A DNA stretch of 64,000 bases from Octopus vulgaris (taxonomy: Eukaryota), in NCBI GenBank assembly GCA_951406725.2, contig OX597823.1:54436001-54500000 (forward strand). Direction: 5' to 3'. The notes under the pieces were generated by a model that saw only the letters and a list, made by a program, of their open reading frames with translations, made no database searches and was not told where the DNA came from. The position numbers and the translations under genes are program-made. The first letter of the stretch is position 1. The number at the start of each line of letters is the position of its first letter. Positions 14,957 to 54,200 of this stretch are shown here, one piece after another.

Positions 14957-14992
<36 letters not shown>

Positions 14993-19218: not shown

Positions 19219-19258
<40 letters not shown>

Positions 19259-22171: not shown

Positions 22172-22208
<37 letters not shown>

Positions 22209-28200: not shown

Positions 28201-28916
28201 TATTTGATATTCGACTAATTCTGCTTTAACTCACTACAACTTAAATAAAATGCCGCCCCCCCCCCCCCCCCAAAAAACATCAAAAGGCAACAACAAAATT
28301 ATTTAAACATAACTTACGCTCAGATGAACATGGGTCTCCATTTTGATAAGTCAAACTTATCAGATTTCGGTCAATAGAAAACACTGCATCACTGGCGTTC
28401 CCATAGTTAACTTCATGATTGATTGTGTCAGCATAGCAGGCACCTGATGTTTTACAGTTGTTTGAGAGCCCACTCACAGGCCCACATACCCGGAGAAGGA
28501 AATTGCCAGATGGATCAGCAGGAATCTTTAAGAGGAAGAAAACAACAAAAACAAACATAATTGGGTGAAAACTCAAGATTTACAGAAAGCAGGGAACAGG
28601 TGCATCCATGCAATGTTTCCATAGGTACTAATAATATAAAGCTAAATACTGTTAAGTCTTCAGCCCACTGGGTTGGCATTCTGCTCCTCCACCATCATTT
28701 GATTAAAGGAAAAGGAATGAAAAAATTAATTAACATTTCTGAACACTTAAACTCATTATTTGAATGCTTTTGTTTACTGCATTTCATGCCTTCTGTTAAA
28801 TAGGAGATTCAGGCATGACAGTATGCTGAAGAAGCTCACTTTGTAACCATGTGTCTTCCACTATAGCCTCAGGTTGACAAAGTCTTGGCAGACAGAAACT
28901 AGAAGAAGCCTGTTAA

Positions 28917-28949
<33 letters not shown>

Positions 28950-29326
28950 TGTACATGACCTTATCTTGTATGATGTGATGGTTATAAATTAGCATCAGTC
29001 ATACGAGCAATGCTGCTAGTTTCCAATCTTCTACGAAAACATGTCTGACCATGGGGAAATATTACCTTACCTTGAAACAGGTGAGGTTCATGACAGGAAG
29101 ATCATAGAAGAGCTATTTACTCTTTTACTTCTTTCAGTCATTTGACTCTGGCCATGCTGGAGCACCGCCTTTAGTCAAGCAAATCGACCCCAGGACTTAT
29201 TCTTTGGAAGCCTAGTACTTATTCTATCGGTCTCTTTTGCCAAACCGCTAAGTTACGGGGACATGAACACACCAGCATCAATTGTCGAGCGATGTTGGGG
29301 GGACAAACACAGACACACAAACATAT

Positions 29327-29381
<55 letters not shown>

Positions 29382-31355
29382 CATATATACGACGGGCTTC
29401 TTTCAGTTTCCGTCTACCAAATCCACTCACAAGGCTTTGGTCAGCCCAAGGCTATGGTAGAAGACACTTGCCCAAGGTGCCATGCAGTGGGACTGAACCC
29501 GGAACCATGTGGTTCGTAAGCAAGCTACTTACCACACAGCCACTCCTACACCTGAACAAATTCTATGGAAAAGTGGATGTTAAACAATGATTATGATGAC
29601 GCATGCATGCACAGATGTATATTTGTGAAATATATAAGGACATTAGCAAGAAAACTGGTGTTTTTTAACATAAAAATGTTGTATTTGATCTGCCAACATT
29701 GCACAGATGCTCCAATAGCACACTTGCCATCATAAATACTATGAATTAGCAATAGGCTCATTGGAAAACTACAACCAGCAATGCTATTGTTAACAAAATG
29801 ACACTCAATACATTTTGTAAAGTGGTTGATATTAGGAAGGGCATCCAGCTGTAGTGACCAATAGATGATGGAGCCTGGTACAGCTCCCAGCCTTGCCAGC
29901 TCCTGTCAAATCATTCAATCCCTGCCAGCATGGAAAATGGATGTTTAATGATAGATAGATAGATAGAAAAAACGCTTTTAATATTATACCTCACCTTATT
30001 CACACCTGAATTATGCAAAGATGAGAAGTCATATTCAATGAGTGTCCGAGTATCTTTATAAACACAGTGTTTAGGTGCATCAGGGGCAGATTTGTTACAA
30101 ACAAGATTAGTCTCCCAGTTGAAGATGTATGTGCAGCTGTCAATAGCATCCATCAGTACAGGATGGCCCTGAAAAAAGGTTTACAATAGTAATGATAATT
30201 ATTGATAGATGATGATGATACAATGATAACAACAAAAGGGATACAAAATCTATGTTTCACCATAAAAAGCAAAGACACAAATTGAGCTCAGGCTTGTCTC
30301 TTTCACTTATCAAAATAATTAGAATAACGTTAGTCATTGATTAATATTATTTTTACCCCCACCACCCAATTATTTCTAGCCAGCTTTTCAATGTCCATTT
30401 CATTTAATACCTAAAAAACATTTTTTTTTTTTTAATGTAGATAACATTTTGAATTATTCATCTTCTAATTCTTCCAAATCTTTCTGCTGAAATTATTTTG
30501 AAACCATAGGTGGGGAAACCAAACCCTGAAGTATTGGGACCTGGCAGTGAAGTATCTCTTCCAATCCCTGGTGTTTGAGACATTCAGAAGGACTGGGCCA
30601 CTAACCGTGAAGTTCTTATCATTGACAGCTCACCTCACTGAGGAATCAGGTGATGCCCATGATGGTGCTTTGCTTTTCCAATGCCTTAGCCTCGCCACTG
30701 CCCATAGTAATGCTGCAAGTGTGCTGGCTTGCTTCACTAGCTTCCATTGAACCTTGCAATGTGTGGCCAATCAAAGCATTTGGAGTTGTATTGTTGGCTT
30801 TTTTTCTTCTTCTCCACAAATGGTTTCAAAACAGTTTTGGCAGAAAGATTTGGAAGAATTAGAAGAAAGTTCTCCATTATAATAAATAATTACCTATTTG
30901 GTTATAATACAGTTCTTAACCCTTTGTCTGTCTTCTGTATTACATGTGATACACAAGACACACTTCCCTGGTGAGCATGCATCATATACAATACACATTC
31001 CCAACATTTTTTATTCACCAGAGTAACTTGAGACTTTAGTTAGCCCTTGTTTCATATGCTCTGAGTAATAATATAAAGCTTTTCTTTCTTCAGACCCAAA
31101 TATAAAAGAAAGCTTTATATTACTTAGTATGAAACACAGGCTAACTAAAAGACTGGAAACAAGCATAGACGCTTAGGACAAACATTTGAAAATACTTTGG
31201 ACAGGCACGGCTGTGTGTTGAGAAGCTTCCTTCCTAATCACATGGTTCCGGGTTCAGTCCCACTGCCTAGCACCTTGGGCAAATACCTTCTACTATAGTT
31301 TCAGGCTGACCAAAGCCTTGTGAGCGAATTTGGTAGATGGAAACTGAAAGTCTGT

Positions 31356-31398
<43 letters not shown>

Positions 31399-32871
31399 CT
31401 TCATCATCATCATCGTTTAACGTCTGTTTTCCATGCTGGCATGGGTTGGATGGTTTGAATGAGGTCTGGAAAACCAGCGGCTGCACCAAGCTCCAATGTG
31501 ATCTGGCAATGTTTCTACAGCTGGATGCCCTTCCTAATGCCAACCACTCCGAGTGTGTAGTGGGTGCTTTTTATGTGCCACTGGAATGGGAGCCAGCCAG
31601 GAGGCCCTGGCAGCATTCACATTTGGATAGTGCTTTTTATGTGCCACTGGCAAGGGAGCTACCGGCAAAGGGCACTGGCATTGACCACGTTCAGATGGTG
31701 CTTTTTACATGCCAGCAACACAGGAGTCAGTCTGGCAGACCTGGCATCAACCATGTTCAGATAGTGGTTATTACATGCCACTGGCATGGGAGCCAGTCAG
31801 GAGGCATTGATATTGATCACTTTCAGATGGTGCCTTTTGCAGAATCCAGCCAGGCAGCACTGGCCACAGCTGCGATATTGATTTTATTTGACTCAACAGG
31901 TCTCTCAAGCATGTCATATCACCTGATTCATCAAGGGTATTTTTAAATGGGCCGGATATGCAACACTGGCATCGGCCATAGCTGCAATTTCACTTTACTT
32001 GCCGGATCTTCTTAATCACAGCATATCTCTAAAGGCCTTGGCCTCCTGTCATTGCCTCCATGAGGCCAAACATTCATAAGTCATGCTTCACTACCTCATC
32101 CCATGTCTTCCTGGGTCTACCTCTTCCACAGGTTCCTTCCAGAGTTAGGGTGTGGCACTTCCTCACATAGCTGTTCTCATCCATATGTAACACATGACCA
32201 TACAGTCGTCTCTTGCACACTGCATTTGATGCTCTCTATGTCCAACATTTCTCTGTCGTGTATGCTCATTGACATTACACATCCAGCAGATCATACTAGC
32301 TTCATTTCTTTCAAGCCTGCACATGTCCTCAGCAGTCATGGCCCGTATTTCACTGCCGTGTAGCATGGCAGTTCGCACACACGCATCATACAGTCTACCT
32401 TTCATCCTGAGCGAGAGGCCCTTAGTTGCCAGCAGATGTAAGAGCTCCCTGAACTTTGCCTAGGTTATACATATTTTAACTGCTACACTCTCAGAGCATC
32501 CACCCATACTACAGACTTGGCTGCCTAGGTAACGGAAACTATCAACTACTACTAGTCTTGTCCCCTGGCATGTGATGGAATCTGTTTTCTGAACATCTTC
32601 AGTGCTTATTACCCCTGTGCATCTGCCACACACAAAAACTATCCTCCCAGTTAACTTTCCTTTGATATTGCTGTACCTTTTATGTGTCCCTAGTTTAAAC
32701 CAGGTACATCTTATAGATTTTCTACCCACACCTTTTCCACACATCAAGCAGGGCCACCTACCTAAAAGAATTTGTGATTTGCCAGCCTTCCTACTTACTA
32801 AGACTTTGGTTTTTGCTAGGTAACCCTAAGGCCCTTCAATTCTAGACCTTCCTTCCACACTTTAAACCTTG

Positions 32872-32906
<35 letters not shown>

Positions 32907-34947
32907 CCAAATTTTATAGTATTAAGTATCCATCATGGCTGGTCTTACCAATCGGTTTCAAGCAAAAATACAATGGAGTGTTGGGTAACAATCTAATTAT
33001 AATTACGCTCATTTGTATTTTTGCATGAAACCGATTGGTAAGACCAGCCATGATGGATACTTAATACTATAAAATTCAGATAATGTATACCCACTCTACT
33101 AACAGTTATACGAGTGCATTTTCTCTTTGACTTATGGTCTCTTAGACAACTCATGAATGTTATCTGAATATATATTCACACACACACACACACACACACA
33201 TACATACACACACACATTCAGATAAGAGAAGAAGTGGAGCAACAATTAACAATTAGAAGCTGATCATTGGTATTGAATAGTCATAGTTTAATTATAGTTA
33301 AAAGAATATAATTTACAGCTGTTTCAGTTTGTTATTTTTGAGGTAAACTTGCATTTATCAGAATTTTTTCCTTTTCCTTTCCTTCTGTCAATATTCCTCT
33401 GATAAAGTTCAAATCATTCTGATGATGTTTGTTACATGGAATGAAATAAATTCAAGTTTACCTCAAAAATAACAAACTGAAACAGCTGTAAATGTTATCT
33501 TAACGATAATTAAACTATGACCATTCAATACCAATGATCAACTAATTGTTAATTGTTGCTCCATTTCTTCTATTATCTGAATATATTAAGCCACGGTTTA
33601 CCATTTAAATTACCAACTGCTGTTAACCTAATAACAAGGCCTATACATAGTTAGGTAAAACACCAGTAGTGCCTACAGATACATTTATCCCTTAGATGGT
33701 TGCATAAACTCTAACTCATAATTTTTTTATATATATATATATATATATATCATCATCATCATCGTTTAACATCTGCCTTCTGTGTATGGGTTGGACAGTT
33801 TGAAAGAAGCTGGCCAGGAAGGAACCTGCAGACTTTTGAATAAGTACCAGGCTTCAAAAACATCAGTCCTGGGATCGATTTGTTCAACTAAAGCCCTTCA
33901 AAGCAGTGACCCAGTGTGGTTGTAGTCAAATGACTGAAACAGGTAAAAGATAAACAACAAAAAAATATGAGGCAAAGGGTCAATATTGAACTAGAAAAAA
34001 AAAAACAGTTACTCAAAATTAAAACATTTTTCTTTCATAGAAATCAAAAAGGCAGACAAAAAAAAAAGCATAAGTGAAAATGACTTACTAAAGATGGACC
34101 AACTTTGCATCTAAACTTGATGATTGTACTTCGGTTTTGCTTAGAGTTGGGACAAGGTGCACCATTTTTGTAATGAATAGTCACAGCTTGATCATTTGGA
34201 TCAATGTATGGACCATCAGAAACTGAACCAAGACTCTAATGAAAGGAAAAGGAAAACAAACATAAAATTTACATAGTTTATAGAGGTATAATAGAAAGCT
34301 AAGATAAATGAAAGGTACAAGGAGCATTGCAGAAGTTTTCAGACTTTTTCAGGATAGACTTGATAATTTCAAAGAAGTAAAAAAAAACTGTAAGATCATT
34401 CAAAGTAGGATCCTTTGACTTCAATGCACTTGAAGTGTTCCAGCCACTTTCTGAAGGGCCATATGGAAGTCCTTCAAATTGAAGGTGTCCAGTACCTTTA
34501 TCACAGCCTCTTTCATCTTCAAAACAAATGCCCCTGAGGTTCTCCTTCATCTCAGGGACAACCTAAAGTCACAGGGAGCAAGGTTTGAACTGCAGGGAGG
34601 GTGAGGGATAGTTTTGATACTCTGTCAAGTACTTGGTTACCAGGGTGCTTGTCACTGAGCACCAGAAGAATGAATTTTGTACAAACTTTGTGTATGTTCA
34701 GATCTTCATGAAAAATTCTATGTAAAGTTGCCATGCAAACTGTACATGTATCATTTTCATAGATACATAGATATGTAGGCGTAGGAGTGGCTGTGTAGTA
34801 AGTAGCTTGTTTACCAACCACATGATTCCGGGTTCAGTCCCACTGCGTGGCACCTTGCGCAAGTGTCTTCTACTATAGCCTCGGGCCGACCAAAGCCTTG
34901 TGAGTGGACTTGGTAGATGAAAACTGAAAGAAGTCTGTCGTATATAT

Positions 34948-34983
<36 letters not shown>

Positions 34984-37900
34984 ATATGTTTGTGTGTCTG
35001 TGTTTGTCCCCCCAACATCGCTTGACAATCGATGCTGGTGTGTTTACGTCCCCATTACTTAGCGATTCGGTAAAAGAAATGGATAGAATAACTACTAAGC
35101 TTACAAAGAATAAATCCTTGAACCTCTTATGAAATAAAAAGTTAATCCATAAGCAGTTTGGGGGTGTTTGTTAAGTTTCTGTAGTGTTTTTACCCAATTC
35201 ATCATGAACCTCTATTGTATATTCTTTTGTTTCAGTCATTTGACCGTGGCCATGCTGGAGCACTGCCTTTAGTCAAACAAAGTGAACCCAGGACTTATTC
35301 TTGGTAAGCCTAGTACTTATTCTATCAGTCGCTTTTGCCAAACCGCTATGTTACAGGGATGTGAACATACAAACATTGGTTGTCAAGTAATGGTGTGGGT
35401 ACAAACACAAACACACATACATGACAAGCTTCTTCCAGTTTCTGTCTACCAAATCCACTCACAAGGCTTTGGTTGGCCCAAGGCTATAGTAAAAGACACT
35501 TGCCCGAGGTGCCACGCAGTGGGACTGAACCTGAAACTATGTGCTTGGTAAGCAAGTTACTTACCCCACACAGCCACTCCTGCGCCTATATAGCAACCTT
35601 CCAAATATACTGACTGCATTCTGCAAACTAGTCAGCTGTGACAAGCAGTGTTAAGTAGGGTGTGTTCAAAGTGCTGTTATGGCCATATCAAAAGTTGGCC
35701 AATCAGCTTATAAGATGTAAAGTAATTATATACTGATGTTGATCCAGTCAACTAAAAAAATTCTTCAAGGCATACCCAAGCTTGGTGGTAGTCAAATGAC
35801 AAATGAGTAAAAGATAAAGGAACAGTTATAACAGTCTCTATCCAAAAGTCTCAAAACTTCTAGAATGCACCATGTTGTTAAATAGGAGTTCAATCATTAT
35901 ACTTAGACACTAAATATCTATTTGGAGATGTTTTGCACTTATGTAATTGCATTCGCTGCCTCAAGCGCCAATTTTGGCTGCTTGGTTAAAAAGCTCACTT
36001 TTCATCCATATGGTTTCAAGATAGTTGTCTCATATCAAGTAATGACTTTATATTCTCAAGCAAATTTCCAAGATTTTACCCATCACGTGTGAAGGCGCAT
36101 GGCTCATTGGTTAGAACTTTGGCTCAAAATCATCATGAGGTAGTGAATTTGATTCCTGGACCAGGCTGTGTGTTGTATTCTTGAGCAAGACACTTTATTT
36201 CACGTTGCTCCAGTTAACTCAGCTATGGAAATGAGTTGCAATATCACTGGTGCCACGCTATATCAGCCTTTACCCTTCCCTTGGATAACATCAGTGGCAT
36301 AGAAAGGTGAGGCTGGTATGCATGGGTGACTGCTGGTCTCCCATAAACAACCTTGCTCTGACTTCTCCCTTGGAGGGTAACTATCTAGGCACAATTCCAT
36401 GGTCATTCAAGACTGAAGGGGGTCTTTACTCTTTACCCATCATACTTGTACAACTTTTTTTTGTCTTTCTTGAAGTTTACTTACCAGGGATAACCACAAG
36501 TGAAGCAAATAAACAGTCTTTGGAGCAGGCAACAATATTTCTAGTCTTGAAGTAGATTAAAATTTTTTTTCCTCTCCTACAATGATCTGAAGCTTACCAA
36601 TAACAACTATGTTGCATACTCTTTGCTTAGGTTTCATCTCCATTCACTATCTGTTCAATGATTTTTATTAATTATTTGAAAGTAATCATTACAGGTATGA
36701 TTTTAATTAAGTGAAAATTGTTTTGATTCACTCTATAGAGTATACTATCCACAGCTTGATTGTGTGTCTTCCTATAGAAGGCAGCCTTTGAGAAATTTTT
36801 CTTTGAAAAACAGCTTGTAGTCCATTCTTCCTTAAGAACATACAACAGTCATTTTTCCTGTAAAAGTTCTGACTTTCATGATTCCTGCCTTCAGAAGCAC
36901 AAACCAAAGTATGTTAACTTCAACTTGGCTGTGGGTGTCACTGCAGAGGGTGTCCCTGGAAAATTTACTATAAACCATGACATCTTGTTAAAAATAACAC
37001 CTAAGCACTTTTAAACAACATTTTGATGAAGAAAAAAAAAAAACATTTAATATAGTTCAGGGTACATTATCAGAAAACAAAGTTGGGATAGTCAGAGCTG
37101 GAGTGTTGCTCATCATGGGCCGATTTGATCAGGATGACATAGAACATAACAAAATCAATATACTTACCACACCATTTTCATCAACATGGGTCTCACAAAC
37201 AGAAGCAAGAGGGGGACAGATAGACCCATAGATGGGATTTAAGGGTCGGCAAATATTTATGTAGTATGAAGCACCAGGATCTTCCGACGGTGCCATGCCT
37301 TCAGCAACATGATGTCCGGACATCTGTACCAGTGGAGATAAATCAAACATCTGGCCACCTTTTATCACTGTACAACGAACCTACACCAAAGAGAGAAAGA
37401 ACATCAAAACTGGACTTCAAAAACAAAAAATAATAATATATAAACAAATAAATACATAAATTGGTGCCATATAAAAGGCACTCATGCTTGTGTCACTTAG
37501 CAAGCACCCGTACATATGCTGGTGTCATGTAGAAAACAACCATGCTGGTGCCACACATAAGGCACCCATGTAGGTGTCACATAAAAAACACTGGTGCTGG
37601 CACCATGTAGAAAGCACCCAGTATACTCTGTAAAGTGGTTGACATAGAAACCATACCAGAACAGACAATTAGAGCCTGGTGAAGCTCACTGGTCTGTCAG
37701 TTACAGTCTAATCGTTCAACCCATGGAAACAGATGTTAAATGATGACAATAATGGTAAGTGTAGGCAAAGGCATAGCATCGTGGGTAACAAGTTTGTTTC
37801 ACCATTACATGGTTTTGGGTTCAGTACCACCATATCGTGGGCCTATGTCTGCTGCTATAACCTTGGGCCAACCAATGCATTATGGGTGAAATTAGTGGAT

Positions 37901-39266: not shown

Positions 39267-42200
39267 CATACATACATACATACATACGTATGCATTTATG
39301 AGCGTGTCTTTGTGTTTGTCCCCACCACCATCGCTTGACAACCGATGTTGGTGTGCCTATGCCCCTGTAACTTAACAGTTCAGCAAAAGAGTCCAATAGA
39401 AAAAGTACTAGGTTTACAAAGAGTAAGTCCTGGGGTTGATTTCTTTGACTAAATGGTGATGCTCCAGCATGGCTGTAGTCAAATGACTGACACAAATGAA
39501 AGTATGAAAGAAAAATTAATTACCTGTTTTTCACAAACTAAATCTGTATGCCAGGAAAAATAGTAAGTGCAATTTTTAGATTCAGCTAGATACACAGGAG
39601 CACCTATTCCTTTTGAGGGGTTGCACACAAAGTTGATGATTGTGTTTCGTTCAAACTTGCCTCCATGACATTTATCACCACCAGAATAGTTCAGGAAAAT
39701 GACGCCTTCTTTGAATTGAAGGTTGCTGTTAGCTTTTCCACAATTAAAAGATTTATTGGTGTTCGTGTTGGTCTGGCAGGAGCCTTCATTAAGGAGAAAA
39801 AAAGGGAGAAGAATGTAAGAGAATATAAAATTTAACAATACACTTTCTGTGGTTCAAGTAAAGGCACCATCACTGATTGTATGTTAAGAGGAGGAAAATT
39901 AACCCAAATATGGCAAAAAAAAAAAATAAATAAAATAAAGAAATCAAACTTACTGGATTCTTTTGAACATTGGCTATTTGCCACTGCACCACAAATGTTA
40001 AGTTGGAATGAATGTTCTTTTTGATCACTTATGGTGTATCCCTTAGATTTCTTCAGTTGAGACAGGTCAAAGGAAACTCCTAAAATAAACAAACAAATGT
40101 GAATAAATGAAATAACAACAGGTCTGAAAACAATGATTAAAAAAACTGAAGCAACCAAATCTGTTCTAACAAGCAGCATTGATATGATTGGAATTCCGTG
40201 AAACTGGTGAGGAACATCCACTCATTAATAGATGATGATATAGGATGAATTTTATCAGAGATAGTCTGTTGCACACCAGCCATATCTCTCTCTCATATGT
40301 ACACACACATACCAGATTCTGGATTTAGTAGCATGGCAAATAGAAACTGCTCAAAAGTTTAGCTCCAGATTAATGCAACCAGTTGATTAATTAAGCACAT
40401 TTAAGCAATGACTATCCCCTTTTCCATTGTACAGATATAGTACCTAGGTGGTTTTATTGTTTTTTTTTTATGCTAGTAAGTTATGGGTTGAGGTGGATTT
40501 GGTTGGTACTTTCAACAGATCAAATCTCTACATTCACATGAAGATTTTAATACTGCAATCTGGTAAACAACTTGTTGAATTTTAGATTGTTGCCATTGTT
40601 TAAAACACCAGACACTTGAAGACAATGTGCAAGACTCTAGATAGAAGTGCCAATTATCCCTCAAAATACTCAACCATCTTTACAAAACCAAAAATGAAAA
40701 GAGAGAGAGAACAAACTTTTTTATTATGGCTTAGCCATCTTTTTTCTCAGAAACAAGGCAAAGTTGAAACTGACTCAGTATCGAACAGACCAATGTCTCT
40801 TTTCAGTTCAATTGCAAGGTTTTTTAAATAGTGTTTTCTATCCTCAATCAATGCCCATCTAGTTCCCACAAAACTGCCAGCATAGATTCAGGTCTGAGCA
40901 CTACAGCTTCACCACTTTTGTTCCTCTCAATATTCATTACAGCTGGATTTAACCAGAACCACCAATCACCAGTCAGTTACTATGGGATTAAAGTTAATGA
41001 AAGCTTTTGATATGATTACCAGTCACAGTTTGTTGGAAGATCTTCAAAATAGCACTCTTTCACAAGGTATTATAAGATGATCAGCAATGTATTCAAAAAG
41101 TAGATTAGCAGAAACTAAACCCCAAAACAGAAATCTAAAAGTAGAATTGGGAGACATAGAATTCCCCTGGGAAGCAGTATATCTCACCCACTTTTTAATT
41201 TTTATGGCTCCAAAGTAGTGATAAATAGCAATGAGCAGCTCAAACTCACAAATTATGCAAACAATTTCAGTTTTTGGTTCAGACACTGCTGCTCATTTGG
41301 CCACCACTAAACTCAATAAATACATGCCCAACAAAATTGGTTTTTAAGCAAGCAGAGAAGCAAAACACTCAGCACCTTAACTGGCTGTGACTTTGTTCCT
41401 CCTCAAACTACCCAGTCCCAAATCCAAGTTTCTGGCCATATACTTTTTGTAGAGCAAATACCCAAGCAACAAGAAATTCTTAGCATTCAGAAATGCCTTT
41501 TTATTCACATTGTTTTGAACTGATCACATATTATGTTGTTATCTTTAAGATTTCAATGACATGATTGTTTATTTTTATAATGACAAAGTAGGGTAGGTGT
41601 AAGAGGCTGGATCTGACTGGTGTGAACATAGAACAACTAGAATTTTCAGGCTGGTCGAAATGCTAAAAAGTTAATGGAGTCCACTCTGTTGCAATCATTC
41701 AGGTTAAGTCTCTGGTTTGAAGATACTGTCCTCCCTCCCACACACTTAAAAGCCTTGAGCAAGCGATCTTTAATTTTTACTGCTTTCAGTTATTAGACTA
41801 TGGTTATGCAGGGACACCACCTTGAAGAATTTTTAGTCAAACAAATCAACCCCAATACCTTTTTCTTCTTTTGTTTTTAAGCCAGGTACTTATTCTTTCA
41901 GTCTCTTTCATTAAACCACTAAGTTAGAGACGTAAATACACCAACACTGGTTGTCAAACTGTTGCAGGGGACACACAAAGTCACAACACATACACACGCG
42001 CACACACTTGATGGACTTCTTCCAGTTTCTGTCTATGAAATCCACTCACGAGGCTTTGGCCAGCTTGAGGTTATAGTGGAAGACACTTACCCAAAGTGCC
42101 ATGCAGTGGGACTGCATCTGAAACCATGTGGTTGGGAAGTAAGTTTCTTACCACAGAGTCATGCATGTAAAATAAAGCTAAAAATATAAACTAAACATAA

Positions 42201-45200
42201 TGCTAAAAATTTAAGTCGATTGCTGAGATTTTGACTTGGAGCCCAGAAAAGATGCTGAATACCTTTGATATGCATATTCTCTTACTGTTTCTGCCTAACT
42301 GAAAGGTTCTATGAAGTCATTCAAATAATGAGAAATAGCAACCAAATATTTCTCATATCACATTTTCTTTTAAAGAAGAGCATATAAGACAATGATGTAG
42401 TTCTAGCCATATTAAACAAGAAAAGAAACAAAAGATCATGGCAAGAATACCTTTGACCACAAGGGTTTTAAAAAATACAACTCACTACATGCGTGCATTA
42501 AATAAAAATGATTTACCTGTAGACTCATCAGTTACACTACAGGTGTCATTATGAGATGGGATCTGGTTCAAAGGACAAGCTTCTCGTGCAACCCACAAAA
42601 AGTGATGTTCACATTTACTTTCTATATAGTAATACTCTTTGGGGCTTGAATCCTGAATTCAGAAAGAAAGGAAAATATTAAAGGCATTTCAAAACTGTAA
42701 ATATTTTTTTATCCTTTTACTGGTTTCAGTGATTGGGTGACAACCAAACTGAGGCACCGTTTTCGAAAGTATTTAATTAATCATTTAGACCATACCAGCA
42801 CTTATTTCAGTCCGACTGAATGAATAAATTACATGTTTAAAAAGTCACCATACAACACTGAAAGCATATGGCCCAGTAGTTAGAGCATCAGACTGACTCG
42901 AGTAGGATGAAAGGTAAAGTAGATCTTGGTAAGATTTGAAATTAGAGCTCAGAAGGCAAAAACAAATACTGCAAAGCATCGTATCCAACAGCCTAAAGGT
43001 TGTCATATCACCAACAGATAATTGTGTGTGTATGTGTTTGCATGGGTGTGCACAGATGTGTGACAACCACTACATATGTGAAGAGTATGGTTTATTGCTG
43101 TTGCAAACTCCTGCCAATAGAGTTCCTGCCACTATATGTTCAGTTGCCCTCAACAACCAAAACACTACTTCAACACCATTCTAAGAACAATATTTCTAGA
43201 CATTCATCTCAAAATATTAAGAGTAAGTACAGATGCATAACTAATAACAGCAGCAGCATCAATAACCTCATCAACTCCAAATGCTATGTATGGATGTATT
43301 TATTCCCACCTGAAACCATAGGTAGCCTTGTTAACCCACAAATAAATAAATATACATGCACGTCTTCTTTTTGTTTCAGACAAAATAAATTCAGATTTAT
43401 AAATTAGATAATGGCTTTAGACCAAAATACAATCATAACCCACCACAAAGGAGGTGAAAGTAATACAGCTTTAGCTAAAAAGCTTAAAATTAACCAAACA
43501 ATAATCTGGAAAATTGCCATGAAATTTCAAGAGACTGGTTCCATCACTGATCAACCTGAACGTAATTAAAAACGGAGAGTGTGGACCCTCCAGATTATCA
43601 AAAGTACGAGAGAAAACATATGGTGAAATCCTTGTCATTCTGTCAGAAAACTGGCTACCACAGCAAAAATAAGCTGAAGATCAATGTACTGTGTGCTGAA
43701 GGAGGATCTCAGGACCCACCTCTACAAGATGATCTGCCTTCATAAGCTCACACAAGTTTATAAGACCATGAGACTGGGGAGAGGTCATCTTATCCTGCGT
43801 CAGATTGCTGAAGGCATGCTGCCCAACCTGGTGATCACTGATAAAAAGAAATTTGATATCAAACAGACAATAAACCACCAGAATGACTAATTTTGGAATG
43901 TATCTGGCTCCATCGAGGGTAGATTTGTAAATCAACATCAAAATCCACAGTCCTTTATCGTTTGGGTGGCTGAGGCAGTCACAGGAAGGTCTCATCTTGT
44001 TTTTGTGTCCTTGGGTGTTAAAATTAACACCCATCAATACATTAGTGATGCTCTGGAAGCTGAACTGCTTCCATGGGTGAATGAGCACTTCCAAGGTGCA
44101 CTTTGGAGCCTCCAACAGTACTTGGCACCATCCAACAGCTCCAAACAGACAACACTGGATTCAAAAAAACGTTGTCGTTCATAGGAAAAGATGTGTGGCC
44201 CACAGGAAGCCCGGATCTCAACCCGTTGGGTTTTTCTGTTTCATCTATTTTGTAGACAAGGATCTTGAGCATTCCTCATGCTTCGCTTGATGCTCTGAAG
44301 AAAAAACTCTGAAGGAAAAATGGACTTCAATTCCATAAGAACAGCTGCATGCCACATGTGAAGTATTCACACCTAGACTTAAGACAGTGAGCTAAAACAG
44401 AAGTGGTCATATTGAATAAATGTGGTAGAGTCATAATTGTGTCTCCTTTACCATTGCATTGCAATGCTTTGGCAAAATTGAAAAAAGTTGAAACAACCTG
44501 TATATATATTCTTTGTGGGTTAACAAGGCAAACAATAGTTTCATGTTAGGGGATTTTCACAACTGTTTGAATATGTCACATGAACGTGTTGGTACTTGTC
44601 TCTATTTTAGATGGAAATCACATGAAATCATTGGTAGCTTTGTTGACCCACAAATAAAGAATATCTATCCACCAACACTTGAGGACTCATTTTCCCTTTT
44701 CAACATTAGTGTGTGTGTGTGTATGTATGTAACTAACTACAGGTGACAACAGGCATATCAGTCCATGATGGAGCTTCTATATGATTGTTAATGATCATTT
44801 AATGCCTATTTTTCCATGCTTGCATGGGTCAAATGGAATTTGTTGAGACAAATTTTTCCTGTCACCAACTCTTGCCTGTTTCCAAGCAATGTAATATTTG
44901 CCATGACCAGACAGGTTTTCCACAGAAGATTGGAAACAATCAACACCACTTGTATGACAGTGATGCTTGTATACAGTCATCACATGATGACAAGACATGA
45001 GGACAAGCAAACACAAACACACACACTGCCTGTGTGTGCACAGGATGGGCTTATTTCATTTTCCATTTACCAAATCCACTCACAGGGCTCTGGTTGGCCT
45101 GAGACTGTAGCAAAAGACACTTGCCCTTAGTGTCATACAATGGGGCTGCACCCAAGATAATATGCCAGGAAAGTAAGCCTCTCCATGACACAGCCCCCCA

Positions 45201-48200
45201 CACACATAAGCTAAAACTAGCAGCCAAATCTCCCTTAAATTACATTGTTTTGTAAAGGCAAAACAGAAGAGACAATGTAGTCCTAGCTACGCAATGACCA
45301 ACAGACGGATGACATGATGGGTATGACTAGAATGTCTATTTTTTATTTAAAAATTTGGCTGTCTATTCGAAATAGAAGTTAAATGACCTTCAAATCACAT
45401 CTTACCATCATAGAAAAGAAAATAATTCAAAATATATTGAATGTTGTTGTTTCTGATATAAAAAAAATGACAGGCTGATTACAGCTAAAATACCTGAATC
45501 AAAGGTCTGCTCAATCAAAACTGACCTGGAGCAAATTAACAAGAGAGCAATTACATGATTGCTCAGCTTGGTAGAAATAGCAGCTAAATCTCCCTTAAAT
45601 CATACCGCATTGTCTTAATAAAAAAGAAAAAGATAAAGCATAATGTAAAACTTAGATGTTAGGAAAAAAATGGGACCATAATGGCCAGAACATCATGGAT
45701 CATAATAAGTGTGTGTAATGCAAGGTTGCAATTAAACAACAACCAACATAAAAGAAAACCAGCAAAAAAAAAAAAATGAAAGTCCCTAAAGACACTTACC
45801 ACAGCAGATAAATCACACTGAAATGTGATGTAAGTTGAAGAAGTCTTCCCTTCTCCACAAGGTTCTCCATTCTTATACACCAACCGTGGGAAATTACCAA
45901 AAAATTCAAGAGGATTGGAACCAAGTTCTCCAATATTGTGATATCTGTAAGAATAGGAAGACAAAAAAAATTTATTTAGTAATTCACTAAGAAAAAATAA
46001 ATTAATTCTTATGTAATTCAATTGCACTGGATATCATCATCATAATCATCATTTAACATCCATTGTCTATGCTGGCATGGATTGGACAGTGTGACCAGAG
46101 CTGGCAAGTTGTGGAACTGCACTAGACTCTGATATGATTTGACATGATTTCTACAGCTGGATCACCTTTCTAATGCCAACCACTTTACAGAGTATGATGA
46201 ATGCTTTTATGTGATGCTACACAGTTGCTGTTATGTGATACCGTATGGGTGCCTTCATGTTGTTGTTGTTTGTTCCTTCTCGAGCCATGCCTGGCTCATA
46301 GGGCCAGTTTCCTGGTTTCCTTGGCGTATATGTTCCCCACCTGGATGGGACGCCAGTCCGTCGCAGGTGAGCTGCAAGATGCAGGAGTAAAGAGTGAGAG
46401 AAAGTTGTGGCGAATGTGTCGGCAGAAGTTCGCCATTACCTTCTGCCGGAGCCGCGTGGAGCTTAGGTGTTTCGCTCATAAACACACACATCGCCCAGTC
46501 TGAGATTCAAACCTGCGATCCCTCGACCGTGAGTTCGCTGCTCTAACCACTAAGCCATGTGCCTTCATGTGTCACCACATGAGTGCTTTTACATGACACA
46601 CAACTGCACGGGCATTTTTACATGGTACTTCCCCAAGTGCTTTACATCACCAGAGGATCAGTTCGAACACTTTTGCTGCTGAGTACGGATCTCTCTAGGA
46701 ATATAATTTTTTGAACTTATATTTTATCTTCAGAGATCAAACACTTGAAAAACATTATAGAATTGCATAGTTTTAAAAAACGCTTTTATTCTTTTTCCTT
46801 TTTAAAGAAAATGAAATGTCAAACTCATAATCTAAAGTAGTAGTTCCCAAACTTTTCCAGGCTGCTGCCCCTTGGTTCCCAGGTTACATTCCAAGCACAC
46901 ACCCCGACTCACTATCACAAACATAGAGCAAATTCAAAACAACTGTATTTCAGAAATAAAATTTAACCGAATTAACTCATTTTGGCAGTGGGGGTTATAT
47001 CCATTGCCTCCTTTTAGCCACCCCATTATTGCCACACTTTTCTTCAATGCCCCTCACCCATCTTTCCATTACCCTCAAGGGGGCAGTACCACCCACTTTG
47101 GGAACCACTGATGTAAAGAGTATGAAAAAATAGTACAGAACACGTTTTCCAATGTTGTAATGAATCTGACCTCAACTCCCACCCAGGAGGTTTCTACAGG
47201 ACAACCTGCTGAGAGCCATGGAAGACAACTGGAGGTTTCTACGGGACAACCTGCTGAGAGCCACTGATCAGATCTGTGGATGGTGCAAAGTCTCCTCTCG
47301 ACCCAAGGTAATGTGGTGGTGGGACAATATTGTTGACAGGGCTATTAGACAAAAGAAACAGGCTTGGAAGGACTGGAAGAATGGTGGTAGCAGGGAAGTG
47401 TATCAGACTGCCAGAAGGGAAGCTAGGAGGCAGGTGTATTTAGCCAGAGGGGAAGCAGATAAGAAAAAATTTGCCAATGTTCTGTGCCGTGAGGACCAAA
47501 GACTTGAGGTTTTCGTGTTGCAAGGCAGTGTGTGAGAGAGAATTGAGATGTGGTAGGAGAGAAATGTGTTCGCATGGATGATGGTTCACTTGCGCTAAAT
47601 GAGGATACAAAGAGAGAGGTTTGGAGATGCCACAATGAAAGGTTGCTGAATAAAGAAAATGAATGGGATAAAGAGAGTCTGCCGAATGTCGACCCAACAG
47701 AGGGACCAGCTATCCAAGTTGACAGTTCCTTGGTAGTTAAGGCAATTAGAAGCATGAAGACAGGGAAAGCCCCAGGCCCATCAGGAATTACTGCAGAGAT
47801 GCTCAAAATATCTGGCAGTGTTGGCTATAGCCTAGTCACCTGTATAGTTAACCAGGTGATACATGAAGGAGTCATACCCAATGACTGGTGTAGCAGCACC
47901 ATAGTCCACCAAGGTTCAGTCTTCAGCCCCCTCCTATTTCTCATAGTCCTCCAGGCAATAACAGAGCAATGCAAGACAGGATGCCCCTGGGAGCTCCTCT
48001 ATGCTGATGACCTTGCTCTAATTGCTGAGTCATTATCAGAACTAGAGGAGAAGTTTCAGGCGTGGAAGCAAGGATTAGAATCGAATGGCCTTAGAGTGAA
48101 CCTAGCTAAAACAATAGTCCTAAGTAGGAAGGCAGACAAACCACAAATCCCTTCAAGTAGATGGCCCTGCTCGATCTTTAGAAAAGGCGTAGGTAGAAAC

Positions 48201-51200
48201 TCTATAAGATGTGCCCAGTGTAAGCTATGGACACATAAGAGGTGCAGCAATATCAAAGGAAGGTTAACTGGGAAGATAGTTTTTGTATGTGGCAGATGCT
48301 CGGGAGCAATAAATAACAATGAAAATATGCAGAGAACAACTTCCGCCACATTCCAGGGAGAAAAACTAGAAGTAGTTGATAGCTTCCGTTACCTAGATGA
48401 CCAAGTCAGTAGCCGGAGAGGGTGCACTGGAAGTGTAGCTGCTAGAATAAGAATAGCCTGGGCAAAGTTCAGAGAGCTCTTACCTCTGCTGGTGACAAAG
48501 GGCCTCTCGCTCAGAGTAAAAGGTAGACTGTATGATGCATGTGTACGAACAGCTATGCTACATGGCAGTGAAACATGGGCCGTGACTGCTGAGGATGTGT
48601 AAGTTTGCAAGGAAAGAAGCCAGTATGCTCCACTGGATGTGTAATGTCAGTGTGCATACTTGATAGTGTTAGTGCCTTGAGAGAAAAGTTAGACCTAAGA
48701 AGCATCAGATGTGGTGTGCAAGAGAGACGACTGTGCTGGTATGGTCATGTGGTGAGAAGGGATGAGAATAACTCTGTGGAAGAGGTAGACCCAGGAAGAC
48801 CTGGGATGAGATGGTGAAGCATGACCCTTGAACATTAGGCTTCACTGAGGCAATGACTAGCGACCGAGACCTTTGGAAATATGGTGTGCTTGAGAAGACC
48901 TGGCAGGCCAAGTGAGACCACAACCTGTAGCCTATGCCTGTGGTGTAACCAGTCCACTTAGGCATACCTTTCCATCATTGGACACTAAACTCTGCTTGTG
49001 AAGACCTGTTGAGGCAAGTGAAATCGAAATCGAATTCGATGACAGCACCACATGACTGGCATCTGTGCTAGTGGAGCACTAAGAGCACCATCCGAGCATG
49101 ATCGTTGCCAGGGCCACTGACTGGCCCCCGTGCCAGTGGCACGTAAAAAGCACTATTCGAGTGTGATCGTTACCAGTATCACCTTACTGGCACATGAAAA
49201 ACAACATTCGAGCGAGGTTATTGCCAGTGCTGCTGGACTGGCTCCTGTGCAGGTGCCACGTAAAAAACACCATTTGAACATGGCTGTTGCCAGTACCGCC
49301 TGACTGGCCCTCGTACCAGTGGCACATAAAAGTACCCACCACACTCTCGGAGTGGTTGGCATTAGGAAGGGCATCCAGTTGAAGAAACTCTGCCAGATCA
49401 GATTGGAGCCTGGTGCAGACATCTGGCTTGCTAGTCCTCAGTCAAACTGTCCAACCCATGCCAGCATGGAAAGCAGACGTTAAACGATGATGAGGATGAT
49501 GATGAATAAGGGTGTCAAATTTTGGTACAAGGCCAGCAGTTTTGGGAGGGAGGGTAAGTCGATTACACCAACTCCAGTGTTCAACTGGTGCTTATTCTAT
49601 TGACCTGAAAGGATGAAAGGAAAAGTTAACCTCAGTGGAATCTGAATGCCACTAAGCATTTTGTCCAGCACGCTAACAATTCTGGCAGCTTGCTGCTCTT
49701 ATGATGATGATGCTGATGATAATCATTTCTACTAAAGGAACAAGGCCTACAATTTTGGGGGAGGGGAGTAGTTGATTATATTGACCCCCGTGTTTCACTG
49801 GTACTTAATTTATTGACTCCGAAAGGATGAAAGACAAAATCGACCTTGGCAGAATTTGAACTCAGAACATGAAGACAGACAAAATGTTGCTAAGCATTTT
49901 GCCCAGCATACTAACAATTCTGCCAGCTCACTGCCTTTATTATAATAATAATAACTACAACAACAATGGTGGTTCTCATGGTTTCTGATATTAAATGATT
50001 GGAAGTGTTATCATGTACATGTTTTGTCTTGGTGTAAAAGATGGGCTACAGCAAATATTCTGATCAATACCCAAGAGATTTGTTTGACCATAACCAGTTG
50101 AGCATGTCCCTTAGTGGCTGATGATATGTGCATCTCTGATCCCAAGAAGTAGTGGGAGAGTACTGTATAGCCATGTATTGAGAGGAATTCTTTGGGGTTT
50201 GAATAATTCACCTTTGGAAACGGGTGTTTTGTTCATCATACTTATGCAAACTTTATTCAGGGACCTTCTGAGTGGAATGGGCTACCCATCCCGAAGAAAA
50301 TTCTAATTGGGCTCAACCTACAAGGTCATGTACTGTTTATCTTGATATGAGATCACCTTACTATGCACTGATGGTTGTGATGCATGTGCATGGTGTACCC
50401 TTTGTCTATTTGTACCCCAGTGTCACTTTGATGACATGAATTGTTCCTTCACTCAATAATAATAACAATTGGTGCATTGGGAACTGTAAGCAAAGATATG
50501 GACAAATGGCTGAAGGAGATTGGAATAGAATGTCCTGTAGAGCTTCTACAGAAAGTTTGCCTCTTAGGGACAGGAAAGATTATCAGGAGGGTACTAAGCA
50601 ATTGTGGATACCTAAGTTTACAAGAAGTAACTTGCTACTCTCATAAATCCTGCCAGGAATAAGACCAAACCTGAGTCAAATCAAAAATAATACTAATAAT
50701 TATTTCTACTCTAGGTACAAGGCCTTCAAAAAATTTTTTTTTTGGGGGGGGGGGGTAGATGATTATATCAACCCCAGAGCATAAGTGGTACTTATCTCAT
50801 CAACCCTGAAAGGCTGAAGGTCTGAAAGATACTGGAACCAAGATTTGCATAAAAAGTGCAATCCTATATTCTGCAAGAATCCTAAGATTTGAGGAGCTGT
50901 ATTGTTACCAAACCTCATAATAACATTTCTGTCAATTAAATTAGCATGTAATAGCTTTTGAATAATGATGAGGATGATGATGACAAAATACTAGGCAGTG
51001 GCTCTAATGGCTTCTGATCTTAACTGATTGGAAGTGTTAACATGAACATATTTTGTCTTAATGGGTGTAAAAGACAGGCTATAACAAATATTTTGCTCAG
51101 TACCATTGATTTTCCTGTCAGTTGCTTGCCCTCAACCAGTTGAGCATGTTCCTTTGTGACTGACAACATGTGCATCTCTGATCAAGAGCAGGAGTAGTGA

Positions 51201-54200
51201 TGGAGAGGAGCATCATAGCCATGTGTTGAGAGGAATTCTTTAGGGTTTGAAAAATTCACCCCTGGAAACAGGTGTTTCATTCATCATCCTGAAACAACCT
51301 ATATTCAGGAATCTTTCAAGTGGGATGGGCAACTTGACCTGAAGAAAATTCTAACTAGGCTAGATCACCCAGTTTACCTGAGATCATGTTGTGCACATAT
51401 GGTTATGATACAGATATCTGTGCTGCCCTTATCAAACAGGTAGTCATGATGGGTGTATTGGGCTTCATATATTTGTACCCCACTGTCACTTGATGGCGTT
51501 AACTGCTCTCTCAATAACAACAACAGCAACATAACAATAGTAATAAGAATAAAAAGAAATATTCGTAATTTTAGCACAATCCAGCAATTTTGAGGGGGTG
51601 GGGCAAGTCAATTACACTGATCCTAGTACTTGACTGGTACTTAATTTTACTAAATCTAAAAATGTGAAAGACAAAGTTGATCTCAGCAGGGTTTGAACTC
51701 AGAATATAAAGAGCCAGACGAAAGACTGCAATGCATTTTTTTCATCTGTTTTAATGATTCTGTCAATTCACTATCCTCTTAACAACAATAACAAAGAGAT
51801 AGAAGAAAAAAAACAACAAAAAATGAAATGAGAAATAGTCTTACTTCTTTGTTGAATCAGTCTCATTCAAATATATGCGACATGCTGCTGAACTGGAGGG
51901 ACATGTTTCACCTGAAAATATAGGAAAGGAGAAAATTAATTGACCCAAAACTGTATCTAGTTACAGGATAAAAAAAAAAAAAACATATTTTGTTTTATAG
52001 AATTTCTATTGAAATTTTAAGTACTGAAATTGTATTTAATTTAATTCAAGAATCTCTTGCTAAGTTATGTCCCAAACACCAGATTAGCCCTTTGCCTGTT
52101 GAAAGCACTTTTATGAGTTTATCTTAAACATCTATGATTATTTTCAGACTTTTAGTCAGCCCTTGTTTCATACATCATTATCATCATTTACTGCCCATTT
52201 TCCATGCTGACATGGGTTGGACAGCTTGACAGGAATTGGTATGGTCAGGGGCTGCACCAGGGTCCATAATCTGTTTTGGCTTGGTTTCTATGGCTTGATG
52301 CCCTTCCTAATACCAACCACAACACACCACAGTGTACTGGGTGCTTTTTATGTGGCACCATCATAGATGCTTTGTTAGTGGCACCAGCAATTTACATTCT
52401 GAATAATATAAAGCTTTCTTTTCATTAGTCCCAAATAATTCTGGTTGTTGAAAAAAATTGAGAATGTGTATCACATATGATGTAAGGATGCCAGGGAAAT
52501 AGGTCCAGTGTATCATATGTGATACACAGGACATGCAAAGAGTTCAATAAATGAATATTTCTTCATTATATTCAAAAGTGGCAAAGGTCAGTGTAAGTTC
52601 ATAAGAAATATATTCCTCGCCAGGAACCTGTTTCCAATTAGCTTTAATAGGTCCTCAATTTCATGTTTTGTATGCCAGAATTCAGCAATTCAAAGGGCAT
52701 ATTTGGGAAGAAATGAATGATTCTTACTCTCATTTTTTTCTTTCAGAAAACCAAGACAGAATGAAGAAAGGAAACTACAGAGGATCAATTTTGAAAAGAT
52801 TGAAAATGAACCAGACATTCACATTTCATATTTCTTTTTTAAGTGGCTACAATTGTGATGGGTTTCACCACCCCTTGCTTGGAATCTGTTTCCTATTAAC
52901 TTTACAATTATAACAGTGAGTTACCACTTTTATAACGATGGTTTTACCACTTTTATAAATTGGTGGATTTATCTTCTTTATATGGTGATTATTCTCCCAA
53001 GCAGACTTTCCTAAGACCACGTCAGTTTGTCACCAATTAATAACGTTGTGATGGATTACCTGGTTTATAATGTTTTTAACTCGGAAAAGGTAATAAATAT
53101 AGATGTTTATTGAACTGAAATCTATGGTGATAAACCTGTCAATTATAAGTAATATCACTATGCACAAATCTTAACTCAGGTTGCATAAACGCCACGATGA
53201 ATTATATACCAAGATGCTGAAATGTGCATGTTTGTTTAAGATAAAAAAGCTTGCTCTTTTTCATCACTATAATAAGTTTCATAGTTACAGAAATAAATTT
53301 CATTAACAGGTTGAAGAAAATGAAGAAAAAGAAATTATTTACTACATTAGTTTATTTACGAACATTTAATATTTACACATGCCAGCGCTGCCTGACTGGC
53401 GTCCGTATCGGTGACACATAAAAGCACCAACCGATCATTGCCGTTTGCCAACCTCCCCTGGCCCGTGCTGGTGGCACGTAAAAAGCACCCACTACACTCA
53501 CGGAGTAGTTGGCATTAGGGAGGGCATCCAGCTGTAGAAACACTGCCAGATCAGACTGGAGCCTGGTGCAGCCTCCGGTCCTCCCAGACCCCGGTTGAAC
53601 CATCCAACCCATGCTAGCATGGAAAATGGACATTAAACGATGGTGATGATGATGAATATATTTAGAAGTCAAAGAAAATTGTCGTAGAGAATTAAAACAT
53701 TAGCTAATTCTTCCATACTAAGCTATTAGAGTTTTACACAACAATTCAAAATAGTCTTGTTGAATTAAGTAATAGACATGGCATAACAATAGCCAATATC
53801 TCAAAAAAATGATCACTGGGTGTGAGTGTCGTGAAGATGAGTAACAACCAACGATCACTGACTAATTTTCCAAAAATCAGGGTTTTTATAACTGCTCATA
53901 CCTGAATTCTAAGAACCGCATTTCATGAAAGATTTCACTTTGACAAAAGTTTAGAATTCAAATATGGGCAGTAATTTTAACCAATGGGAAACTAACAATC
54001 ATACCTATTCGGGAACATGACCATTGTGTCATATTACTGCCAATAATGTTTTATTATGACTTGCACAATGTAGTTAATGCTCTCTGTCCTCTATTATGGT
54101 GAGGAATTCTCCAAAATATAACGTCTGATGTAGGTTACTGTTTGGTTTGATAGCAATGGCCAGGAAAGCTTACTTTATATTGAGGAACAAAAGAGATTTT

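What the first reader, a model, noticed from the sequence alone, without database searches (positions are those of the whole stretch)
39524..42545. Domain 11 (mammalian IGF2-binding domain) carries a complete M6P-lectin signature
Seen: the spliced domain 11 reads ..SSCQTN..GGDKCHGGKFERNTII..YLAESKNCTYYFSWHT.., with Gln, His, Arg, Glu and Tyr at the same positions as domain 9 here (AACQ..CHKKFNRKT..EEKDDCSY). Known: Q/R/E/Y (CD-MPR Q66/R111/E133/Y143, plus H105) define mannose-6-phosphate-binding MRH domains. Mammalian domain 11 lacks them and has a hydrophobic IGF2 pocket instead. The domain number follows from counting back from the TM and from domain-11 landmarks (GKAN..L, FSWHT.L.CE). Inference: this receptor has an additional sugar-phosphate site at position 11. 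That may be the ancestral state later converted to IGF2 binding, and the protein is unlikely to bind IGF2 the mammalian way.
Basis: partly seen in the sequence, partly recalled or inferred. Interest (0 to 1): 0.8.

Follow-up and report, generated by a model that had tools for sequence, protein, structure and literature searches.

The report
Ancestral sugar site beneath IGF2 pocket
In the octopus version of the mannose-6-phosphate/IGF2 receptor, and in many other invertebrates up to amphioxus, domain 11 carries the full set of sugar-binding residues at the positions where mammals have their IGF2-binding pocket, so the mammalian hormone site likely arose by remodelling an older, predicted mannose-phosphate site.

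Summary
Confirmed and extended. [quoted passage not shown] Domain 11 carries Q1559/H1595/R1601/E1623/Y1629, the QREY set (plus His) of domain 9. Numbering is firm: the protein is collinear with a primate receptor, and a recent copy of domain 9 is rejected (36% identity; AU p=0.003). The full set occurs at domain 11 in 35 of 55 named invertebrate receptors (molluscs, chelicerates, a myriapod, echinoderms, hemichordates, amphioxus, Trichoplax), in 0 of 118 vertebrate and 0 of 3 tunicate domains, and in 0 of 458 control domains. Q and R align with human F1567 and Y1606, documented IGF2 contacts. Best reading: an ancestral phosphomannose site, lost near the tunicate-vertebrate stem and later co-opted for IGF2. 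Sugar binding is inferred, not shown; a nearby Tyr is His here and QREY also serves non-phosphorylated mannose lectins. Ten literature searches found no report of this, but key subscription papers were unreadable.

The parts
42517..42652 (-). Exon: end of MRH domain 10 and start of domain 11 (first Cys C1506 at 42541-42539)
   Evidence: joints in transcript contigs
39954..40079 (-). Exon: domain 11 strands A-C region; H1536 (40014-40012) at the place of domain-9 Y1255 and human G1546
39524..39783 (-). Exon: domain 11 core with Q1559 (39775-3), C1594-H1595 (39670-65), R1601 (39649-7), E1623 (39583-1), Y1629 (39565-3); sequon N1626; unpaired C1570
63500..63580 (-). Exon: C-terminal end of domain 8 with E1178 (63559-7) and Y1184 (63541-39); Q1113, H1149, R1158 of the same set lie upstream of the window (read from P0004)
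58990..59218 (-). Exon: domain 9 N-half with Q1261 (59029-7)
54883..55254 (-). Exon: domain 9 C-half with H1299, R1304, E1327, Y1333, and start of domain 10
45800..51911 (-). Two exons of domain 10 (51911-51845, 45944-45800); no signature
8770..37380 (-). Thirteen exons coding domains 12-15; domain 13 has no fibronectin type II insert
7068..7202 (-). Exon with the transmembrane segment
1457..5771 (-). Two exons of the cytosolic tail (5771-5702, 1558-1457) ending in an acidic-cluster motif DSDEDMIL and stop

Best explanation
Octopus CI-MPR domain 11 is the positional orthologue of the mammalian IGF2-binding domain and keeps the Q/H/R/E/Y residues of a likely mannose-6-phosphate site, which was likely the ancestral state in animals and was likely lost near the tunicate-vertebrate stem before being rebuilt as the IGF2 pocket. 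Shown: residues, splicing, domain number, distribution. Inferred mechanism: as in domain 9, Gln, Arg, Glu and Tyr would hold the mannose hydroxyls and the His after the disulfide-tied loop cysteine would contact a phosphomonoester, with release at endosomal pH (established for mammalian domains; carried over by homology). The octopus receptor would then have five complete sites (3, 5, 8, 9, 11) and capture lysosomal enzymes with more valency than the mammalian receptor. Inferred history: QHREY in Trichoplax, protostomes, ambulacrarians and amphioxus; L/I-x-H-x-H in Ciona and all fish sampled; Tyr at the Arg position in some amphibians and reptiles; F1567/Y1606/L1636 in mammals. The receptor would not bind IGF2 the mammalian way: the contact positions hold Q, R, E and D, and the FnII insert is absent.
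For: Signature and splicing. Collinearity and residue map Q1559=F1567, H1595=P1599, R1601=Y1606, E1623=D1630 (or L1629, one-residue ambiguity), Y1629=L1636; F1567, Y1606, L1629, Y1542, I1572, K1631 are named as IGF2 contacts in PMC7467306 (passage); QREY = Q1283/R1325/E1345/Y1351 governs domain-9 binding in PMC10865371 (passage). Complete set at domain 11 in 35 of 55 named invertebrate receptors, all 35 with the His; domain 9 in 49 of 53; vertebrates 0 of 118 at domain 11 versus 118 of 118 at domain 9; tunicates 0 of 3; control positions 0 of 458. Amphioxus keeps it. Profiles built from vertebrates only put octopus domain 11 at 11 (135 bits vs 117 for domain 9) and the 11th domain of 35 of 41 fifteen-domain invertebrate receptors at 11. 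Octopus D11 is 36% identical to its own D9 but 42-47% to D11 of abalone, mussel, spider, starfish, acorn worm and amphioxus; AU test rejects a cephalopod D9+D11 clade, p=0.0027; intron positions of D9 and D11 differ. Capsaspora's 18-domain receptor has QHREY in 15 domains, so the complete set is the basic state of the repeat. AlphaFold model pLDDT 95.6, MRH fold, Z 21.1 to human D11 and 20.9 to D9.
Against: No binding data. 20 of 55 invertebrate D11 lack one or more residues (13 gastropods, 2 unionid mussels, Lingula, 2 nemerteans, Saccoglossus, a tick), and later-named Dendronephthya, Procambarus and Armadillidium also lack it, so the site is dispensable. The accessory Tyr (Y1255 in D9) is His in 47 of 54 invertebrate D11 and mostly Leu in D8. 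Octopus has a sequon (N1626) three residues before Y1629. The D11 clade has weak support (59/78), the AU test does not reject invertebrate D11 grouping with D9 apart from vertebrate D11 (p=0.18), and 6 of 41 invertebrate 11th domains score best as domain 9. Side-chain convergence in the model could not be measured (no coordinates returned).
Confidence: 0.72

Rival explanations
1. Domain 11 is an ancestral lectin site, but for a different glycan (non-phosphorylated high mannose, M6P diester, methylated or sulfated mannose) rather than M6P monoester.
For: QREY reads the mannose ring and is also used by OS-9, XTP3-B and glucosidase II beta (recalled; these folds appear as weaker hits). The conserved His in place of the accessory Tyr (47 of 54) suggests a specialised site.
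Against: All 35 complete D11 keep the Cys-His loop of domain 9, which domain 5, the diester site, lacks.
Confidence: 0.15
2. The residues are ancestral but the site is weak or silent in octopus (masked by the N1626 glycan or by neighbouring domains), kept for folding or domain packing.
For: Repeated losses in 20 of 55 lineages sampled; sequon at Y-3 in only 4 of 55 invertebrate D11; neighbouring domains occlude domain 9 in one mammalian conformer (PMC7481795 passage).
Against: Five polar residues co-conserved from Trichoplax to amphioxus, against 0 of 458 in control positions; a sequon at the same place occurs in 50 of 119 vertebrate domain 5, a binding domain.
Confidence: 0.09
3. Invertebrate 'domain 11' is a copy of domain 9 (duplication or gene conversion) that replaced the original, so it says nothing of the IGF2 domain's ancestry.
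For: AU test cannot reject an ancient invertebrate-D11 + D9 grouping (p=0.18); 6 of 41 score best as domain 9.
Against: Recent copy rejected (p=0.0027; 36% identity; different introns); collinear 15-domain layout; best tree has all 12 D11 on one side of a branch; amphioxus, inside chordates, keeps the set; C-terminal FSWHT landmark shared with vertebrate D11.
Confidence: 0.04

Closest known systems
Mammalian CI-MPR / IGF2R domain 11 (human P11717; PDB 1GP0, 1E6F, 2V5P)
   Same: Same position in a collinear 15-domain receptor; same fold (Z 21.1, rmsd 1.4 A over 129 residues); shared landmarks; 33% identity to the primate domain.
   Different: Q/H/R/E/Y stand where human has F1567/P1599/Y1606/D1630/L1636; Asp at Y1542 and Lys at E1544 positions; no FnII insert in domain 13.
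CI-MPR domain 9 (M6P monoester site; PDB 6Z30)
   Same: Complete Q/H/R/E/Y in register, same loop disulfide; Z 20.9, rmsd 1.5 A.
   Different: Different position and introns; His instead of Y1255; sequon next to the site in octopus; binding untested.
CD-MPR and other QREY MRH lectins (OS-9, XTP3-B, glucosidase II beta)
   Same: MRH fold (Z 14 for CD-MPR, 9-11 for the others) and the QREY set (recalled for these proteins).
   Different: Single-domain or ER proteins; OS-9-type domains bind non-phosphorylated mannose (recalled).

Membership tests
CI-MPR / IGF2R orthologue | 15 tandem MRH (CIMR) repeats collinear with the vertebrate receptor | tested here: met
   15 Pfam CIMR stretches in P0004; collinear global alignment; window matches P0004 at 1161 of 1170 residues
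CI-MPR / IGF2R orthologue | Single TM segment and acidic-cluster C-terminal sorting motif | tested here: met
   exons 7202-7068 and 1558-1457
M6P-binding MRH domain (domain 3/9/CD-MPR type) | Q, R, E, Y tetrad in register | tested here: met
   control mapping on domain 9 exact
M6P-binding MRH domain (domain 3/9/CD-MPR type) | Disulfide-tied loop with His/Ser next to the Cys (H1320 type) | tested here: met
   C1594-H1595 aligned with domain 9 C-H
M6P-binding MRH domain (domain 3/9/CD-MPR type) | Accessory Tyr (Y1255 of domain 9) | tested here: not met
   His1536; His in 47 of 54 invertebrate D11; His also in 4 complete invertebrate D9. That this Tyr is non-essential in CD-MPR is recalled
M6P-binding MRH domain (domain 3/9/CD-MPR type) | MRH beta-barrel with the residues converging on one pocket | tested here: inconclusive
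   fold met; side-chain geometry not measurable, no coordinates returned
M6P-binding MRH domain (domain 3/9/CD-MPR type) | Measured M6P-inhibitable binding | not testable with these tools
   needs recombinant protein
IGF2-binding domain 11 (mammalian type) | Hydrophobic pocket F1567, Y1542, Y1606, L1629, I1572 | tested here: not met
   Q, D, R, A/E at the first four; Phe at I1572 (contact list from PMC7467306)
IGF2-binding domain 11 (mammalian type) | FnII insert in domain 13 supporting IGF2 binding | tested here: not met
   48-residue gap against the primate; no Pfam fn2 hit; role from PMC7015683

The most novel reading that the evidence does not exclude
The mammalian IGF2 pocket is a decommissioned M6P site whose working ancestor survives in octopus, starfish and amphioxus: the first animal receptor had complete sugar sites at domains 3, 5, 8, 9 and 11, chordates lost 8 and then 11 (two of the three domains that clasp IGF2 in the cryo-EM structure), and the sugar-contact positions themselves became the hormone contacts by a traceable path (R to H to Y1606; Q to I/L to F1567; Y to H to L1636).
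Probability: 0.6. Interest if true: 0.82.

Novelty: new variant of a known kind. Interest (0 to 1): 0.72.

Why it matters
IGF2 capture by this receptor is a textbook case of a new function in an old protein and is tied to the parental-conflict theory of imprinting. Papers seen here describe the gain of IGF2 binding in mammals and count sugar sites at domains 3, 5, 9 and 15 only. Living orthologues with a complete sugar signature at domain 11 give the missing starting point, date its loss hundreds of millions of years before the gain, and make the lectin-to-hormone switch testable with natural intermediates (amphioxus, Ciona, shark, caecilian, echidna). They also predict that many invertebrate receptors have more sugar sites than ours.

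Tried and rejected
No whole genome is held, so the M6P-tagging enzymes of this octopus could not be looked up. A 'longer' word-index search with the single exon found nothing; the exhaustive search did. Recent duplication from domain 9: rejected. Mis-splicing or mis-numbering: rejected. Single-sequence BLAST scores were misleading: octopus D11 scored higher to primate D5 (106) and D3 (94) than D11 (79), as expected for a domain keeping the lectin residues. The structure search cannot tell D11 from D9 or D5 (Z within 1). In the unmasked FastTree a degenerate Trichoplax domain labelled 9 fell inside the D11 clade; with signature columns masked all 19 D11 formed one clade at 0.795. My rule for Glu (5 or 6 residues before Tyr) misses Lineus, where Glu sits at 7, so 35 is a floor. 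Domain 15 scores 0 under my rule in all groups because its Arg lies elsewhere (recalled), so it was not assessed. No run is on record as RNA; the spliced contigs show splicing, not expression level. No lamprey, hagfish or sponge receptor was among the named hits; annelids, insects, crustaceans and cnidarians are thinly sampled. No complex was predicted: M6P is not an offered ligand. Earlier scan notes gave nothing on this finding. Papers not held: Williams 2012, Bochel 2020, Frago 2016, Olson 2015, Brown 2008, Kim 2009; their alignments or supplements may bear on novelty, as may the closed supplements of the bioRxiv preprint.
Full report
Gene. [quoted passage not shown] It differs from Octopus sinensis XP_036361842.1 (P0004) at 9 of 1170 residues, and from two Octopus vulgaris records at 0 of 790 and 0 of 289 compared. 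Numbering below is that of P0004. Contigs of runs X5 and X9 join the six exons from 45944 to 34089 in one piece with GT-AG joints and no other letters; 4 runs of 24 listed were laid, and their RNA nature is a guess of the tool.

Observation. A global alignment with a primate receptor of human length has only two gaps of 15 or more residues, maps octopus domain 9 exactly on Q1283/H1320/R1325/E1345/Y1351, and maps the domain in question on human domain 11: Q to F1567, H to P1599, R to Y1606, E to D1630 (L1629 with the gap moved by one), Y to L1636. PMC10865371 (passages) gives Q1283/R1325/E1345/Y1351 as the QREY motif of domain 9; PMC12284618 (passages) models H1320 and R1325 as ligand contacts; PMC7467306 (passages) names F1567, L1629, Y1542, K1631, Y1606 and I1572 as IGF2 contacts. 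So two of the four sugar positions are documented hormone contacts in mammals and a third is adjacent to one. That the IGF2 pocket lies on the same face as the CD-MPR sugar pocket is recalled from the domain-11 structure papers, which I could not read.

Distribution. All proteins of 1250 residues or more were cut into MRH domains with a profile, numbered with position-specific profiles, and read at five positions; domains with a numbering margin under 10 bits or a gap at a signature position were left out of counts. Among 55 named animal receptors outside tunicates and vertebrates, the tetrad is complete at domain 3 in 33 of 51, 5 in 46 of 53, 8 in 41 of 56, 9 in 49 of 53 and 11 in 35 of 55 (all 35 with the His); at the nine control positions in 0 of 458. 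Among 119 vertebrate receptors it is complete at 3 in 116 of 116, 5 in 117 of 118, 9 in 118 of 118, 8 in 0 of 117 and 11 in 0 of 118. Domain 11 is complete in cephalopods, abalone, most bivalves, spiders, a scorpion, a sea spider, a centipede, all echinoderms sampled, two of three hemichordates, amphioxus and Trichoplax (whose 12-domain model is numbered by flanking domains), and in a partial Limulus protein named later. It is incomplete in 20 of 55 and in Dendronephthya, Procambarus and Armadillidium. The sample is rich in molluscs and the rows are not independent.

History. Three tunicates lack the set; the two Ciona share His at the Arg and Tyr positions with 7 of 7 cartilaginous fish, 70 of 70 ray-finned fish, coelacanth and lungfish. 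Tyr at the Arg position appears in 2 of 5 amphibians and 4 of 8 sauropsids; Phe at the Gln position and Tyr at the Arg position in all 27 mammals. The simplest reading is one loss after the amphioxus split, then stepwise building of the hydrophobic pocket. Amphioxus has lost domain 8 but kept 11. Unicellular relatives have long receptors rich in the motif, Capsaspora in 15 of 18 domains, so the complete set is the basic state of the repeat and regain is an unneeded assumption.

Is it a copy of domain 9? Octopus D11 is 36% identical to its own D9 and 42-47% to D11 of six distant invertebrates; introns differ; vertebrate-only profiles, which lack the signature at 11, still rank it as 11 (135 vs 117 bits) and do so for 35 of 41 invertebrate receptors, the other 6 ranking as 9. 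In a 60-row IQ-TREE run (12 taxa, domains 3/5/8/9/11, signature columns masked, LG+G4) each domain number forms one side of a branch, strongly for 3, 5, 8 and weakly for 9 (46/79) and 11 (59/78). The AU test rejects a cephalopod D9+D11 clade (p=0.0027) but not an ancient invertebrate-D11 + D9 grouping (p=0.18).

Structure. AlphaFold2 on a 26-row alignment gave pLDDT 95.6; the model matches human D11 (Z 21.1), D9 (20.9) and D5 (20.4) about equally, CD-MPR at 14. This shows the fold; pocket geometry could not be measured.

Mechanism. Shown: residues, position, conservation. Inferred from homology with domain 9: mannose ring held by Q/R/E/Y, phosphate by the Cys-His loop, giving five complete sites (3, 5, 8, 9, 11) in octopus and in 12 of 41 fifteen-domain invertebrate receptors, the commonest pattern. 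Reasons for care: the accessory Tyr is His in domain 11 (47 of 54) and mostly Leu in domain 8; octopus has a sequon at N1626 and an unpaired C1570; QREY is also used by lectins for neutral mannose (recalled). IGF2 binding of the mammalian type is unlikely given the polar pocket and no FnII insert; PMC6779898 and PMC8805411 (passages) state that invertebrate receptors do not bind IGF2 or insulin-like peptides. PMC7015683 (passages) reports that IGF2 is held by domains 6, 8 and 11; domain 8 uses other loops, so its link to the lost sugar site is only suggestive.

Novelty. PMC11541866 and PMC7481795 (passages) list sugar sites at 3, 5, 9, 15; PMC6684648 (passages) describes the gain of IGF2 binding in monotremes; PMC9109462 and PMC11186620 (passages) add nothing on invertebrate domains. 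A 2026 preprint (10.64898/2026.10.22.760878; abstract, passages, part 1 of 2 of section 5 and the Discussion) surveys the M6P system across eukaryotes and scores QREY in Trichomonas only; its main text has no occurrence of 'IGF2', 'domain 11' or 'invertebrate'. Ten searches of the open-licence library found no report of the tetrad in invertebrate domain 11 or 8, but six central papers were not held and older work on mollusc and starfish receptors (recalled) could not be checked. Verdict: a real, well-conserved, apparently undescribed variant of a known receptor with a direct test; interest 0.72.

Noticed in passing
window 63580-63500 and P0004 1053-1194: Domain 8 also carries a complete Q/H/R/E/Y set (Q1113, H1149, R1158, E1178, Y1184), as in 41 of 56 invertebrate domains and 0 of 117 vertebrate ones; amphioxus has lost it.
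   Followed up: partly
P0173 (Capsaspora), P0270 (Salpingoeca), P0012 (Hartaetosiga), P0002: Unicellular relatives of animals have 16-18-domain TM-type MRH proteins with many complete tetrads (15 of 18 in Capsaspora): a highly multivalent candidate receptor.
   Followed up: partly
P0153 and P0154 versus window 63580-1457: The Octopus vulgaris annotation splits this one gene into two records (1972 aa and 289 aa); the window shows one open reading through domains 13-15.
   Followed up: yes
window 39742-39740 and 39574-39566: Octopus domain 11 has a ninth, unpaired cysteine (C1570, Ala or Ser in most relatives) and a sequon (N1626) beside the predicted pocket.
   Followed up: partly
P0178, P0188, P0189, P0028, P0184 and heterobranch snails: Gastropods other than abalone show graded decay of the domain-11 set (Glu lost first, then His, Gln), a natural parallel to the chordate loss.
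   Followed up: partly
P0054 (Halotydeus mite), P0058, P0063, P0073, P0112, P0128: Shortened 8-9-domain receptors that appear to jump from domain 5 to domain 12, deleting 6-11 and keeping only the domain-5 tetrad.
   Followed up: no
P0174 (Lingula): The 3344-aa model repeats domains 4-8; internal duplication or assembly artefact.
   Followed up: no
window 47547-48602 (+) and 32460-32825 (-): Intronic retrotransposon fragments; the first has a Pfam RVT_1 hit (E 5e-12). Many short interspersed repeats fill the other introns.
   Followed up: partly
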